Assembly: GCA_964195615.1 (NCBI GenBank)
Contig: CAXMSB010000159.1
Coordinates: 1,747-65,746 of the forward strand
Source of the DNA: an uncultured Granulosicoccus sp.
GTDB taxonomy: Bacteria; Planctomycetota; Planctomycetia; Pirellulales; Lacipirellulaceae
Reading direction: 5' to 3'
DNA length: 64,000 nucleotides
The notes under the pieces: model-generated
Told to the model about the DNA's origin: nothing
Seen by the model: only the letters and a program-made list of their open reading frames with translations
The model's database searches: none
Program-made: the position numbers and the translations under genes
In this document: piece by piece, positions 28,600 through 32,850 of the stretch
Layout: every line of letters starts with the position of its first letter
How positions within the stretch are numbered: position 1 is the first letter of the stretch

Positions 28600-28928
28600 A
28601 CGATTGACCTACTCGCTGGGTAGACAACAACTTCGGTCGATGCCAGTTTGCAGGCGCTGCAGAATCCCATGCAGTTGGTACTGATTCGCCTCCGATCGCA
28701 GCCGATCTGGCCAAGGTGATCGAGGCGTGGCCGACACTCCCCGAGGCAACACGAGCGGCCATCTTGCGGCTGATCCACACCTGAGAGACTAGCGCCCGGC
28801 ACCCGTCTGCACGAGTCAGTGGGAGGGCCACCAGATCAACACTTAGGGTCACCCCTGGACTGTCCGCTGAGTCTATGAATACAGGCGCGAAACGCGGCTT
28901 GGGACCCATACACGCGAGAGAGGGGCAT

Positions 28929-29173
28929 TTTTGGATCGCCCCCCACCCCTTCGCGCATCGGTTCCATGGCGTATAGTCTCCCTCTTCCTCGCCACCGGTT
29001 TCCTGCTGGCGTGACGTGTGCGTGACGAAAGCGCCGGCATGGGACCCTAATCCGCTCAGAATCTCAACCGCCCCCTCGGGCCTCTCGGCGCAGGGAAGTT
29101 AGTTGACGGCCACAGCGCGCCGCAGGAAACGTAAGTTCCGTTAAGTGCGGCGGGTGTGCACGCCGCCGCAGGA
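28929..29173 (+). repeat. Left arm of ~245-bp inverted repeat
   Basis: Aligns over its length with the reverse complement of 32605-32850, with scattered mismatches. Confidence 0.95.
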
Positions 29174-29204
29174 AATGGACATTCTCAAATCCCCGTCGGT
29201 CGAT

Positions 29205-29460
29205 GAATCCTTATAGGATCACCAGTACACCGGCTTTGTGCGTCTGGCCAGAACGGAAGCCATTGCCGAGGCCTGGAGTTTTGGCTAGACGGAATCACAA
29301 AGCCGCCGCGATAATCGATTCGAAATGGTAGCCAGCTGGGCGTTACGGATAGATGAATCCAGCTGCTAGACGGCTTTGCACAGACCTCCGAACGCCTGGC
29401 TTGCTTCGCCCCCAACGGATCACTCAGATGTAGCTCTCGAAGCTCGCTATAAGGACTCCG
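29205..29460 (+). ncRNA. Putative IS110 bridge RNA
   Basis: Stems 29231-40/29296-305, 29242-54/29278-90, 29329-39/29359-68, 29209-16/29447-54; 9-nt matches to the junction at 29377-85 and 29423-31. Confidence 0.72.
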
Positions 29461-29518
29461 CCGGACGAAGCACGGCCTACCAACTGACTAGAATCTCATC
29501 AAACAAAGGAATCCAATC

Positions 29519-30793
29519 ATGAGCGATCAACCTCATCAACCGGCCCTGTTCATCGGCATCGACTGGGCAGACCAAAAACACGACTGCTATGTTATTGACC
29601 GTGACGGCCAAGGATCTCACCGAGTCATCTCACACTCTCCGGAAAGCATCAATGCCTGGGTGAATGAAATGCTCAAGCTTGCCAAGGGAAAACCGATTGC
29701 AATTATGCTGGAGCAGTCACGCGGGCCACTGGTGTACACACTGATGTTCCGAGAAAACGTGCTGCTCTACCCGGTCAATCCAAAGCAATTAGCCCGCTAC
29801 CGCGAAAGTTATCCTGGTGGAGGTAAAGATGATCCCACTGATGCCAAGTATCTGGCGAGAATGCTTCGTGAACGCATCACGACACTGACGGCCTGGCAAC
29901 CCGATGACAAAAACACACGTCTGCTAGCTCACTTGTCCGAGCAAAGGCGCAAACTAGTCGGAAGTCAGGTCAAACTTCGACAACAGCTCACCGCCCAATT
30001 AAAGCTGTATTATCCAGTGGTTTTGGAACTCTTTGGCAAGGAATGGCAACTGCCATTGCTGCTGGGGATATTGAGTCGTTGGACCGATCCTCGCCAGCTT
30101 CGTCGTGCTGATCGACGGCTAATTCGTCGCGTCTTGAGCGAACATTCGATACGCAACGACGAACGCCAAGATCAGATCATCGCTCACATTCGTTCGGCCA
30201 GGTTACTGAGCGATGATGAAGCACTCCTTGTGCCGTCGGCAATGAGCGTCAAGCTCTTAGGCAGTCAAATTCGACAATCACGCCAGATGATTAAGGAATT
30301 CGATGCCAAAATTGCTGAACAGATGAAGCAGCATCCCGATGGGCACCTCTTTACAAGCCTACGTGGTGCTGGCGCGGCACTCGCCCCACGATTACTCTGC
30401 GCGTTTGGTTCGCAGCGAGACCGCTGGAAAGATGCCGATAGCTTGGCAGCGTTCAGTGGGATCGCACCGGTCACCAAGAAGAGCGGCAAGCTCTGTCAGG
30501 TGCATCGGCGGTTCGCGTGTCCCAAGTATCTACGCCAAACATTTCATGAGTTTGCCGACAGTGCTCGAATGTATTGTCCGTGGAGCAAGGCCCGCTATCG
30601 CCTGCTGCGGGATCGAGGCATGAAACATCATGCTGCCCTCCGGAAACTTGCCCGCAGCTGGATCCGCATCCTCTTCCGCGTGTGGAAACTCGAACACCCT
30701 TCGATTGCGACCGCTACATCGAACAACTGCAACAACGGTGTCCAGAAATCAAACCGTACTTGGAATTGCAAAAATGACGAAAACAACAACTAA
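29519..30793 (+). CDS. IS110 transposase/recombinase with 1-nt deletion near the C-terminus
   Basis: IGIDWADQKH, MLEQSRG, KDDPTDA, FSGIAPVTKKSGK. The plausible true tail TRTPFDCDRYIEQL (stop 30777) is in another frame after TGGAAA at 30683-30688. Confidence 0.93.
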   Translation: MSDQPHQPALFIGIDWADQKHDCYVIDRDGQGSHRVISHSPESINAWVNEMLKLAKGKPIAIMLEQSRGPLVYTLMFRENVLLYPVNPKQLARYRESYPGGGKDDPTDAKYLARMLRERITTLTAWQPDDKNTRLLAHLSEQRRKLVGSQVKLRQQLTAQLKLYYPVVLELFGKEWQLPLLLGILSRWTDPRQLRRADRRLIRRVLSEHSIRNDERQDQIIAHIRSARLLSDDEALLVPSAMSVKLLGSQIRQSRQMIKEFDAKIAEQMKQHPDGHLFTSLRGAGAALAPRLLCAFGSQRDRWKDADSLAAFSGIAPVTKKSGKLCQVHRRFACPKYLRQTFHEFADSARMYCPWSKARYRLLRDRGMKHHAALRKLARSWIRILFRVWKLEHPSIATATSNNCNNGVQKSNRTWNCKNDENNN

Positions 30794-31017
30794 CCACTTG
30801 CGGAAAGCTCAGATGTCTGTGCAGTTTTGGAGCTTCCTTCTTGCCCTGCGGGGTGCCAACCGAGGGGTTTGCTCAACTTCCGTTTCCTGCGGCGGTCAGA
30901 TTCACCTCCGCCTCTTAATGCATGTCTCCAAGTCGCACAAGTGTGAGCCGTCGACACAATTTGCGTCCTTTGTGGACAGCGTTAGCATGTATCATGAAGG
31001 TGATATACACATTCCCC

Positions 31018-31533
31018 TTAAGTGGGCGGTTCCGACGATTTCGAGGGTCTGGCAAAGCGCCCAATCAACTCAGCACACCACAGGCCTACGAATACTAGGT
31101 AGACGGTGAGTGGCGTCCATATATCGAGCGGCGGATTCGGGGGTAGATTGGCCTGAAGCGTCCCATGCCAACTGTAGGCTAGTAACAACATCGTGGCCGC
31201 GCCGCACCATGTTATCCTCTGTGCCAACATCTGCCGTGTGGTCGCAACTCGTTCTGGCGCCAGCCAATACTCCTTGTGGGGCAAATTGATTAGTGTCGTC
31301 GGTACACGACTCATGAAGAGCGGTGGCACGGCAAGAAACATTAGCACAACCACCCAGGAACCAGCCATCACGCCGACGAATTTCTCCTTCGGCATCCAAC
31401 TGTCCGGCTGGCCCTGAGCATTGAAATGGCTCGCCGCAGGGTCCAGCAACTGCGGATAGTAATAGAAAGTTTCACCGCCGACGACAACGGTCGCCCCAAC
31501 AATCACTAGCCACGGCAACCAACAACGAAACAT
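31018..31533 (-). CDS. DUF1648-type membrane protein
   Basis: ASHFNAQGQPDSW, INLPHKEYWL, three TM segments. Confidence 0.8.
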   Translation of the reverse strand: MFRCWLPWLVIVGATVVVGGETFYYYPQLLDPAASHFNAQGQPDSWMPKEKFVGVMAGSWVVVLMFLAVPPLFMSRVPTTLINLPHKEYWLAPERVATTRQMLAQRITWCGAATMLLLAYSWHGTLQANLPPNPPLDIWTPLTVYLVFVGLWCAELIGRFARPSKSSEPPT

Positions 31534-32604
31534 TGCGACGCCTCACTTCGATAACAACTAGGTTAATCCTCCGCCGGTCTATTCGCCCAGCGGTGCGATA
31601 TCTTGCCAAAATTATCGTGCGGCCCATGCACACCCGCCGTTAGACACGGACGTTGTTGAATTGCTTTCGGCGTGAAACGCCGATGGGGACTTAGAAACTA
31701 GCGTCGGACGATGAAGCCGAAGCGTCAAAGCAATTCGCCAAAACTGCTTCGGTCATTTTGTCCGATGCAGGTTCGGGAATTCGATGTCTGCCCCAGACGG
31801 GACAGTCTGGATCATCGAACCAACTGCCGCTAACACCAGTCGGGCGATTTCACCGACCGCATTTGAGAATAGCCGGCTTCGACGCTTGGAAGGGGGCAAC
31901 CCACCCGTGCATCCAATCGTTAACCTCCAGGGTGCGGCGGTGTGCACAACCGCTGAGCTTAGCGAACGTTCGTTAACCTGCTCACGTGACCGTGTACTAG
32001 CCCGCTAGCAAAATCCCTCGTACCAATAATCTCTGCTGGTTGGTACGCCGTCGCTAGTTTGGTAGTCACCGTTTCTGGCTTCCCAAGTACCAGTTATTAT
32101 AATGCTAGAGTGCCATTCAACTGTTTAACCTCGAAAAGCCGGATTACTCCACGTGAATAAAATCAATAAGTAATGGACCGAGACTGCCGCATCGCGAGAG
32201 TTTGGCATCCCTTCGACGACTTTAAGACATGCCTCGACACGAGGCGACATCGAGACTGCTACGACGGCCTGCGGACTACCATTGCTATATGGTCCATCGA
32301 TTCAGAAATATAAACGGAAATATCGGCCTAACAACAAGATCAGCGGTGTCATCCGCCGTCGCCGTACAGCCGTAAGAAGCAAAGGGTTCATTCACGCAGT
32401 GCCAGATTCATCTATGCCCCAGGGTTCGGCGTTATGTGGATTGAGAGCGTTCTGGGGGCCAGCCATAAAAGGCAATCGCAAAGATACGCAAATCACCTGT
32501 GCTACATGCAAAGGGAGGGCAACGAGCAAGACTGTCTCTTAACCGGTCCTGAGGTCGCTTGCTCGAAACACAGATTGCACACTTCGGTCTTCTTGGCTGC
32601 CGTA

Positions 32605-32850
32605 TCCTGCGGCGGAGTGCACACCCGCTGCACTTAACGGAACCTACGTTTCCTGCGGCGCGCTGTGGCCGTCAACTAACTTCCCTGCGCCAAGAGGCCC
32701 CGAGGGGGCGGTTAAGTTTCTGAGCGGATTCGGGTCCCATGCCGGTGGTTTCGTCACGCACATGTCACGCCGGCTGGAAACCGGTGGCGAGGGGATGGGA
32801 GACTATACGCCATGGAACCGAGGCGCGAAGGGGTACCCCCGGATCCAAAA
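32605..32850 (-). repeat. Right arm of ~245-bp inverted repeat
   Basis: Reverse complement of 28929-29173. Confidence 0.95.

What the first reader, a model, noticed from the sequence alone, without database searches (positions are those of the whole stretch)
29205..30823. IS110 ncRNA with two exact 9-nt guide matches to its own right junction (bridge-RNA-like, possibly non-canonical layout)
Seen: the right junction reads CTCAGAT-GT-CTGTGCA (30808-30823). The structured 5' non-coding region contains CTCAGATGT (29423-31), identical to the element end plus core, and TGCACAGAC (29377-85), the exact reverse complement of core plus flanking DNA. The two overlap exactly on the GT core, with a small hairpin between them. 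Known: IS110 bridge RNAs (IS621) use loop guides that pair with target and donor halves. Inference: this is a bridge RNA. The perfect guides cover one donor half and one target half, whereas IS621 pairs LT+RT and LD+RD within each loop. Weaker partners (CCCAACGG at 29411, TAATCGAT at 29312) would imply nested loops. This could be a variant or excision-biased architecture.
Basis: partly seen in the sequence, partly recalled or inferred. Interest (0 to 1): 0.87.

Follow-up and report, generated by a model that had tools for sequence, protein, structure and literature searches.

The report
Ordinary IS110 element with bridge RNA

Summary
The two 9-mers are real. Each occurs exactly twice in the window, once at the right junction and once in the 5' non-coding region.

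The element ends are not at "GT". Seventeen related elements and five uninterrupted empty sites place them at a CT dinucleotide (29210-11 and 30817-18).

With these ends the two missing guides appear as exact 9-mers:
- GATGAATCC (29352-60) equals the left flank plus the first core base.
- CTATAAGGA (29447-55) is the reverse complement of flank TC + core CT + element start TATAG.

The order is LTG, RTG, LDG, RDG, in two stem/guide/hairpin/guide loops, as in IS621.

Across 17 distinct guide sets the donor guides are invariant and match invariant ends. LTG and RTG vary and match each element's own flanks: 102/120 and 60/70 positions, against 61 and 25 when pairings are permuted (0 of 20,000 permutations reach the observed values). 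The stems show compensatory changes.

Verdict: this is a new member of a known kind. The "non-canonical / excision-biased" idea is not supported. This copy also has a 1-nt frameshift near the 3' end of the recombinase gene.

The parts
29202..29209 (+). Left target half (LT), GATGAATC, host DNA
   Evidence: Identical to bridge-RNA LTG 29352-59. Contiguous with the right flank in empty sites.
29210..29211 (+). CT core, left copy
   Evidence: Homology among 29 related loci starts at CT|TATAG. CT is the only sequence shared by both junctions.
29212..29518 (+). Left end (LE), 307 nt, non-coding; carries the bridge RNA gene. The first 5 nt, TATAG, are the right donor half (RD) and a -10-like box.
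   Evidence: nhmmer profile hit over the full length. Invariant CTTATAG in all homologues.
29231..29305 (+). 5' stem-loop of the bridge RNA (two stacked helices)
   Evidence: 20 pairs, 12 of them with compensatory changes, 91-99% of cells paired; inverted repeat I7.
29334..29401 (+). Target-binding loop (TBL): stem 29334-49 / 29387-401 with a bulged A, LTG, distal hairpin 29361-75, RTG
   Evidence: Helix 3 has 14 pairs, 7 with compensatory changes, 96% paired; helix 4 is 97% paired.
29352..29360 (+). Left target guide (LTG), GATGAATCC = LT + C of the core
   Evidence: Exact copy of 29202-10. This block varies among homologues and matches each one's own left flank: 102/120 vs 61.4±4.7 permuted, 0/20000.
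29377..29385 (+). Right target guide TGCAC (29377-81) + core complement AG (29382-83) + TBL handshake guide AC (29384-85)
   Evidence: Reverse complement of 30815-23. The 5-nt RTG covaries with the right flank: 60/70 vs 24.7±4.9 permuted, 0/20000. The AG core complement is unchanged in all 17 guide sets; the handshake dinucleotide is AC in 16 of 17 (AG in L005).
29403..29471 (+). Donor-binding loop (DBL): stem GCTTCGCC 29403-10 / GG-A-CGAAGC 29463-71, CGGA 29416-19 / TCCG 29457-60, LDG, distal hairpin 29432-44, RDG
   Evidence: The 6-bp basal stem pairs in full in 16/17 sequences (5/6 in L040), with compensatory changes such as GCTTCA/TGAGGC and GCTTTG/CAAAGC. CGGA/TCCG is invariant.
29423..29431 (+). 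Left donor guide (LDG), CTCAGATGT = last 9 nt of the element
   Evidence: Exact copy of 30808-16. CACTCAGATG is invariant in 17 guide sets, as is the RE end CTCAGATG.
29447..29455 (+). Right donor guide CTATA (29447-51) + core complement AG (29452-53) + DBL handshake guide GA (29454-55)
   Evidence: Reverse complement of 29208-16, TC-CT-TATAG. CTATAAG is invariant. The handshake dinucleotide varies (GA/GT/CA) and partly tracks LT positions 6-7.
29519..30793 (+). IS110-family DEDD/Ser recombinase gene, 424 aa as read. A 1-nt deletion between 30685 and 30686 shifts the last ~30 codons; the conserved tail is readable in another frame up to the stop at 30775-77.
   Evidence: Pfam. Alignment to IS621 8wt6 places D15, E65, D105, D108 and S322 at the catalytic positions. 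Frameshift seen against 7 homologues.
30794..30816 (+). Right end (RE), 23 nt after the stop as read; contains the -35-like TTGCGG (30798-803) and the left donor half CTCAGATGT (30808-16)
   Evidence: TTG is conserved at a fixed distance from the core in 14 homologues, with TTGACA in L036 and TTGACG in L015.
30817..30818 (+). CT core, right copy
   Evidence: Homology among related loci ends at ...CAGATGTCT.
30819..30823 (+). Right target half (RT), GTGCA, host DNA
   Evidence: Complementary to RTG 29377-81. Contiguous with LT in empty sites.

Best explanation
Positions 29210-30818 are one copy (1,605 bp plus a 2-bp CT core at each junction) of an IS110-group insertion sequence of a Lacipirellulaceae/Pirellulales planctomycete. 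Its long left end encodes an IS621-type bridge RNA made of a 5' stem-loop, a target-binding loop and a donor-binding loop. Each loop is built stem / left guide / hairpin / right guide. LTG (29352-60) has the sequence of the top strand of the left flank, so it pairs with the bottom strand. RTG (29377-83) is complementary to the top strand of core + right flank. LDG (29423-31) and RDG (29447-53) do the same for the RE-LE circle junction CTCAGATGT-CT-TATAG. The two bases 3' of RTG (AC) and of RDG (GA) are handshake guides. They pair with positions 6-7 of the other DNA after top-strand exchange, which is why both are contiguous with the guide when read on the integrated junctions. The element sits in a dispersed intergenic repeat. 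Shown here: the ends, the core, the four guides, guide-flank covariation, the RNA stems, and the recombinase domains with aligned catalytic residues. Inferred from IS621: transcription from a promoter rebuilt at the circle junction (TTGCGG in the RE, TATAGG / TAGGAT in the LE), RNP formation, and serine/DEDD-catalysed exchange at CT. This particular copy may be impaired by a frameshift that displaces the conserved C-terminal ~30 residues.
For: Domains PF01548 and PF02371 are present. The only PDB relative is the IS621 transposase, with D/E/D/D/S aligned. Conservation among 29 loci begins at CT|TATAG and ends at CAGATG(T)|CT. All four junction 9-mers recur once each in the LE, in the order LTG-RTG-LDG-RDG and with the IS621 strand polarity (definitions from PMC11208158). 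In 17 distinct guide sets LTG matches its own left flank at 102/120 positions against 61.4±4.7 when permuted, and RTG matches at 60/70 against 24.7±4.9; 0 of 20,000 permutations reach either value. The 9 Stieleria loci share one guide set; their left flanks match its LTG at 7-8 of 8 positions and the 8 with a readable right end match its RTG at 4-5 of 5. The 5 Lacipirellulaceae loci also share one guide set and all match its RTG at 4-5 of 5, but their readable left flanks match the LTG only at 5-7 of 8. For structure, 91% of cells are paired against 36-43% for slid partners, and 21 pairs carry compensatory changes. The 6-bp DBL basal stem pairs in full in 16/17 sequences and 5/6 in the other. 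The motifs ACGGA / TCCG flank both loops, giving pseudo-symmetry with a bulged A. Empty sites read GATGAA(T/G/A)C-CT-GT(G/T)CAG uninterrupted in contigs C181 and C4 of the same genome and in two sister genomes. The LE is 307 nt and the RE 23 nt, the long-LE/short-RE pattern of the IS110 group (PMC11208160).
Against: Rfam 15 has no matching family, so the RNA assignment rests on my own alignment. Only one full copy is present in this MAG. LTG does not pair with T9 of the core in most members, and LDG does not cover the core, which are small departures from IS621. Some loci (L008 and L005 left flank; L007 and L049 right flank) match their guides poorly. The recombinase frame is broken near its 3' end.
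Confidence: 0.95

Rival explanations
1. One reading: GT core, element from ~29201 to 30814, guides arranged as one donor half plus one target half per unit with nested loops (CCCAACGG, TAATCGAT as partners), biased towards excision.
For: The two exact 9-mers overlap on GT at 30815-16, and a GT also lies at 29199-200.
Against: Homologues lose similarity 11 nt to the right of the proposed left end and 2 nt to the right of the proposed right end. Empty sites contain GATGAATCC, which this model places inside the element. With a CT core all four canonical guides are exact 9-mers. AACGGATCA is invariant whatever the flank, and L005 and L006 have a nearly identical TAATC(A/G)AT linker but unrelated left flanks. 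The donor-half plus target-half reading of the right junction is the normal excision substrate of IS621.
Confidence: 0.02
2. The repeated 9-mers are subterminal protein-binding repeats of the element, and the conserved 5' region is a structured mRNA leader regulating recombinase translation. No RNA guide function is involved.
For: LDG and RDG are invariant, so on their own they cannot distinguish DNA repeats from RNA guides. Older literature proposed regulatory roles for IS110 non-coding ends (cited in PMC11208160).
Against: The LTG and RTG blocks match host DNA outside the element and change with the insertion site in 17 guide sets, which no element-internal protein site would do. The strand polarity (left guides in sense, right guides antisense) and the handshake extension match the IS621 RNA-DNA pairing scheme exactly.
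Confidence: 0.02
3. A decayed, immobile relic: the bridge RNA architecture is intact but the copy is dead because of the frameshift, so nothing here functions today.
For: A 1-nt deletion at 30685/86 displaces the tail TRTPFDCDRYIEQLQQRCPEIKPYLELQK, which is kept in frame in 7 of the 8 homologues compared (L039 has its own broken frame). There is a single copy in the MAG.
Against: Everything else is intact: all catalytic residues, four exact guides and perfect junctions. A single-base indel in a MAG assembly can be an assembly error. This rival concerns present activity, not what the element is.
Confidence: 0.3

Closest known systems
IS621 (E. coli) and its 177-nt bridge RNA; IS110 group of the IS110 family (Durrant 2024 PMC11208160; Hiraizumi 2024 PMC11208158; Hiraizumi 2026 PMC13626964)
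   Same: DEDD RuvC-like plus Ser Tnp recombinase. Long LE and short RE. CT core at both junctions, with no terminal inverted repeats. Bridge RNA in the LE, laid out as 5' stem-loop, TBL (stem-LTG-hairpin-RTG) and DBL (stem-LDG-hairpin-RDG). Left guides read the bottom strand and right guides the top strand. 2-nt handshake guides lie 3' of RTG and RDG. A -35 box in the RE and a -10 box in the LE flank the core. Insertion is into a dispersed intergenic repeat.
   Different: The recombinase is very distant: phmmer E = 1e-5 against the IS621 chain, and 424 aa vs 328 in that PDB chain. The RNA is longer (~250 nt), with a ~75-nt two-helix 5' stem-loop. RTG and RDG pair contiguously (5+2+2), whereas the IS621 RDG pairs discontiguously. 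LTG usually covers LT plus C8 but not T9, and LDG covers 9-10 nt of LD but not the core. The host is a planctomycete.
IS1111 group / seekRNA elements (e.g. IS1111, IS4321/IS5075, ISPpu9-type)
   Same: Same recombinase family and the same RNA-guided logic with target and donor guides.
   Different: Those elements carry the RNA in a long RE downstream of the recombinase and have 7-17-bp subterminal inverted repeats (PMC11208160). Here the RNA is upstream, in a 307-nt LE, and the RE is 23 nt.

Membership tests
IS110 family, IS110 group (bridge recombinase elements) | Recombinase with an N-terminal DEDD RuvC-like domain (PF01548) and a C-terminal Tnp domain (PF02371) with a conserved Ser | tested here: met
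   PF01548 2.2e-30 and PF02371 1.1e-12. D15, E65, D105, D108 and S322 align to the IS621 catalytic positions. A 3' frameshift affects only the last ~30 codons.
IS110 family, IS110 group (bridge recombinase elements) | Long LE, short RE, no terminal inverted repeats, 2-bp core repeated at both junctions (CT preferred) | tested here: met
   LE 307 nt, RE 23 nt. CT at 29210-11 and 30817-18. Ends fixed by 29 homologous loci and by empty sites.
IS621-type bridge RNA | Two internal loops, each built stem / left guide / stem-loop / right guide, downstream of a 5' stem-loop | tested here: met
   Consensus fold and pair counts: 91% of cells paired, 21 compensatory pairs, controls 36-43%. The 6-bp DBL basal stem pairs in full in 16/17 sequences, 5/6 in L040.
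IS621-type bridge RNA | LTG (sense) and RTG (antisense) match the target flanks and covary with them | tested here: met
   Exact 9-mer (LTG) and 5+2 nt (RTG) in the window. 102/120 and 60/70 over 15 and 14 guide sets, 0/20000 permutations.
IS621-type bridge RNA | LDG (sense) and RDG (antisense) match the RE-core-LE donor junction | tested here: met
   CTCAGATGT and CTATA-AG are exact. Both are invariant, together with the invariant ends, in all homologues.
IS621-type bridge RNA | Handshake guides: the 2 nt 3' of RTG and RDG pair with positions 6-7 of the non-cognate DNA | tested here: met
   TBL-HSG AC against LD6-7 GT in the window, and in 12 of the 14 guide sets whose right end could be read (L005 has HSG AG; L015 has LD6-7 GC). 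DBL-HSG GA against LT6-7 TC in the window. HSG position 1 pairs with LT7 in most sets, including G-to-C with C-to-G switches in L036 and L040. Definition.
IS621-type bridge RNA | Sigma70-like promoter rebuilt across the core in the circular form | tested here: inconclusive
   TTG(C/A)NN is conserved in the RE, 15 nt from the invariant TATAG or 17 nt from TAGNNT. This is a sequence resemblance only, and planctomycete promoters are poorly defined.
IS621-type bridge RNA | RNA is expressed, binds the recombinase and directs recombination; a circular intermediate exists | not testable with these tools
   Ends map to CT. Empty sites retain GATGAATCC. All four guides are present.
IS1111 group | Bridge/seek RNA in a long RE; long subterminal inverted repeats | tested here: not met
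   The RE is 23 nt and the RNA lies in the LE.

The most novel reading that the evidence does not exclude
This Pirellulales subfamily might be a functionally distinct bridge-RNA variant. It has fully contiguous 5+2+2 right guides, left guides that leave T9 or the whole core unpaired, a one-base register shift of LTG between close relatives (L012 type vs L016/L019 type), and a large two-helix 5' stem-loop. If these features change the core or handshake rules, it would be an orthogonal, naturally diversified system with 17 guide sets in hand.
Probability: 0.12. Interest if true: 0.4.

Novelty: new member of a known kind. Interest (0 to 1): 0.22.

Why it matters
The result mainly cleans up an over-reading: the apparent non-canonical guide layout came from placing the core 2 bp (right end) and 11 bp (left end) away from the true CT. 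What remains is a well-resolved natural series of bridge-RNA elements from Planctomycetota. It has 17 distinct target-guide sets, invariant donor guides, covarying handshake bases and identifiable empty sites. The series independently reproduces the IS621 pairing rules in a recombinase only remotely similar to IS621. That is useful as an annotation template, since Rfam has no model that finds it, and as a possible source of orthologues. It does not change what is known about the mechanism.

Tried and rejected
- The Rfam scan of 28800-31200 at E<=1 gave only chance snoRNA-like hits.
- A search of the MAG for further copies found one full copy and one 80-nt relic.
- RNAalifold on the full alignment paired the RNA's CTTATAG with the RDG and stole part of the DBL stem for the TBL. 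I treated the first as a by-product of RDG complementarity to the LE DNA and replaced the second with the covarying GCTTCG/CGAAGC stem. MAFFT misaligned the 3' strand of that stem, so it was re-scored per sequence.
- I considered an alternative TT-core register for L007-type elements and rejected it, because the RTG does not then fit.
- The large inverted repeat 28945-29178 / 32600-32834 was checked as a possible part of the target. Its arms diverge before the insertion site.
Full report
**Observation.**
- CTCAGATGT lies at 29423-31 and 30808-16.
- TGCACAGAC lies at 29377-85 and is the reverse complement of 30815-23.
- Each occurs only twice in 64 kb.
- ORF 29519-30793 carries both IS110 domains: PF01548 at 2.2e-30 and PF02371 at 1.1e-12.
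- Its only relative among solved structures is the IS621 transposase (8wt6). In that alignment D15, E65, D105, D108 and S322 sit at the catalytic D/E/D/D/S positions.

**Where the element ends.** The MAG (402 contigs, 4.2 Mb) holds one full copy, so I collected relatives.
- I obtained 13 matches from related genomes and 80 loci from GTDB species genomes. The latter include Bythopirellula polymerisocia Pla144, Lacipirellulaceae and Pirellulales MAGs, Stieleria magnilauensis TBK1r (10 copies) and Rhodopirellula sp. SM50.
It begins at C-CTTATAGG (window 29210) and runs to ...CTCAGATGTCT (30818).
- An nhmmer profile of the 5' region finds full-length matches in 29 non-duplicate loci. Every one whose left flank is held begins at CT|TATAG, and every one whose right end is held ends at CTCAGATG(T/C)|CT.
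- CT is the only sequence common to both junctions. The core is therefore CT (29210-11 and 30817-18), the LE starts at 29212 and the RE ends at 30816.

**Empty sites confirm the ends.**
- I joined the two flanks at CT and searched. Contigs C181 and C4 of the same genome carry GGTCGATGAATCCTGTTCAG and GGTCGATGAAACCTGTGCAG uninterrupted.
- In a sister genome (G020) a 112-nt stretch, 82% identical, runs straight across the joint as ...AATGAAGCCTGTGCAGTTTCGGAGC... Two further sites, in G024 and G020, do the same.
- The target belongs to a dispersed intergenic repeat. The 15-mer with up to 3 mismatches occurs 79 times, against 26 for the reversed control.

**The four guides.** With CT as core, the two "missing" guides are exact 9-mers.
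- GATGAATCC at 29352-60 equals 29202-10, that is LT plus C8.
- CTATAAGGA at 29447-55 is the reverse complement of 29208-16, TC-CT-TATAG.
- The order along the RNA is LTG, RTG, LDG, RDG. Left guides are in the sense of the top strand and right guides are antisense. This is the IS621 scheme: LTG and LDG pair with the bottom strand, RTG and RDG with the top strand (PMC11208158).
- That paper also defines handshake guides: the two bases 3' of RTG and RDG, which pair with positions 6-7 of the other DNA after top-strand exchange.
The "GT core" is donor positions 6-7.
- CTATAAGGA splits the same way, as RDG CTATA + AG + handshake GA, with GA pairing to LT positions 6-7 (TC).
- Reading LDG plus RTG/HSG on the right junction is how the IS621 excision complex binds its right-hand substrate (PMC13626964). 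This is a property of every integrated copy, not a special architecture.

**Covariation of guides with flanks.**
- The 29 loci give 17 distinct guide sets.
- CACTCAGATG (LDG) and CTATAAG (RDG) are invariant, as are the element ends they match.
- The block after ACGGAT (LTG) and the 5 nt before AGAC (RTG) are the most variable parts of the RNA, and they follow each element's own flanks.
- Right-flank examples: CCGCA with TGCGG (L005), CTGCG with CGCAG (L015), ACGGG with CCCGT (L039), TCGGG with CCCGA (L036), CTGGG with CCCAG (L035), GAGGT with ACCTC (L019 group), CGCT(A/G/T) with TAGCG (Stieleria).
- Left-flank examples: TTTACGAC (L006), TTTTGACC (L039), GGGGCGAC (L044), CCCTCCC (Stieleria).
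- Summed over one representative per guide set, LTG matches 102/120 positions (permuted 61.4±4.7, maximum 85). RTG matches 60/70 (permuted 24.7±4.9, maximum 46). None of 20,000 permutations reaches either value.
- A few loci fit poorly: the left flanks of L008 and L005 and the right flanks of L007 and L049. Natural IS110 insertions are known to tolerate such mismatches.

**RNA structure.** I aligned the 17 sequences (A1) and counted pairs on a structure taken from RNAalifold, with the donor-loop stem set by hand.
- 91.1% of cells are paired, against 36-43% when partners are slid.
- 21 pairs carry changes on both sides, and 0 of 500 shuffles reach the covariation score.
- The elements are:
  - a two-helix 5' stem-loop (29231-29305);
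  - the TBL stem (29334-49 with 29387-401, including GTT-A-CGGA / TCCGAAC with a bulged A);
  - a 5-bp distal hairpin (29361-75);
  - the DBL stem GCTTCG/CGAAGC, which pairs in full in 16 of 17 sequences (5/6 in L040), with switches such as GCTTCA/TGAGGC and GCTTTG/CAAAGC;
  - CGGA/TCCG;
  - a distal hairpin (29432-44).
- Both loops are framed by the same ACGGA...TCCG motifs. This echoes the pseudo-symmetric TBL and DBL, with flipped-out A residues, described for IS621.
- CCCAACGG is part of the invariant DBL linker.
- TAATCGAT lies in the linker after the 5' stem-loop and is nearly identical in L005 and L006 (TAATCAAT / TAATCGAT), whose left flanks are unrelated.

**Promoter (inferred).** In the reconstructed joint, a TTG is conserved in the RE at a fixed distance from the core. 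It reads TTGCGG at 30798-803 in the window, TTGACG in L015 and TTGACA in L036. It lies 15 nt from the invariant TATAG, or 17 nt from TAGNNT. This resembles the split sigma70-like promoter of IS621. A start near 29224 would fall just before the 5' stem-loop. No expression data could be obtained.

**State of this copy.** Seven of the eight homologues compared end ...RVW(Q/K)TR.PFDC.RYI..L..R.P.I.PY... in frame (the eighth, L039, has a broken frame of its own). The window lacks one base between 30685 and 30686. As a result the ORF as read ends in an unrelated 30-residue tail, and the conserved tail sits in another frame up to 30777. This is either a real inactivating lesion or an assembly error, and I could not check reads.

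**Comparison and verdict.**
- Every sequence-level defining feature of an IS110-group element with an IS621-type bridge RNA was tested and met. The junction promoter remains a sequence resemblance only, and expression and activity could not be tested.
- Differences from IS621 are of degree. The recombinase is remote. The RNA is longer because of a larger 5' stem-loop. The right guides are contiguous 5+2+2. The left guides leave T9 or the whole core unpaired. Close relatives show a one-base LTG register shift.
- Durrant et al. predicted bridge RNAs in 85.7% of IS110-group elements, so a canonical one in a planctomycete IS is expected.
- The finding is a correct detection of a bridge RNA with an incorrect junction model. 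The proposed non-canonical, excision-biased layout is not supported.

Noticed in passing
window 30685-30777: A 1-nt deletion relative to the homologues compared, between 30685 and 30686 (GTGTGG-AAAC vs GTGTGGCAAAC), shifts the recombinase frame. The conserved C-terminal tail TRTPFDCDRYIEQLQQRCPEIKPYLELQK is readable in another frame, ending at 30777.
   Followed up: partly
L002 758-838 (own genome, contig C269): A solo 80-nt relic, 84% identical to the first 80 nt of the LE. It starts exactly at CT|TATAG and breaks off inside the 5' stem-loop. On the opposite strand its end, CTATAAG, joined to flank GAGACGCCC, forms the AAGGAG Shine-Dalgarno sequence 6 nt upstream of the ATG of the neighbouring gene.
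   Followed up: partly
window 29118-29209 and 30819-30900; own-genome contigs C181, C4, C158, C160, C241, C244, C340; L106, L107, L111: The insertion site lies in a dispersed intergenic repeat family (consensus around GCTTCGGTCGATGAATCC...GCAGWTTCGGAA, followed by ...CCGTTTCCTGCGGCGG). The family is present in many copies in this genome and in sister genomes. Palindromic units GCGGCGGGTGTGCACGCCGCCGC recur nearby and on other contigs.
   Followed up: partly
window 28945-29178 and 32600-32834: Inverted-repeat arms about 234 nt long and 90-92% complementary enclose the IS plus 1.8 kb that includes a 171-aa membrane-protein ORF (31018-31533, minus strand). The arms diverge before the IS target, so they are not part of the IS. 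Their nature is unexplained.
   Followed up: partly
L012/L008 vs L007/L016/L019 (LTG block of alignment A1, columns 148-158): Close relatives differ in LTG register. In one set the guide ends ...C|AGC (LT7 + C8, with T9 unpaired). In the other it ends ...CT|AGC (LT6 + full CT). The four readable insertion sites of the Lacipirellulaceae MAG fit either register.
   Followed up: no
L025-L030, L033, L038, L085 (Stieleria magnilauensis TBK1r): Nine sampled loci with identical bridge RNAs (one of them, L038, lacks a readable right end) all sit in the same repeat, ...GGAA(A/G)CCCTCCC-CT-CGCT(N)CGCTCG(A/C)CCC. This is a natural multi-site data set for mismatch tolerance at RT position 5.
   Followed up: no
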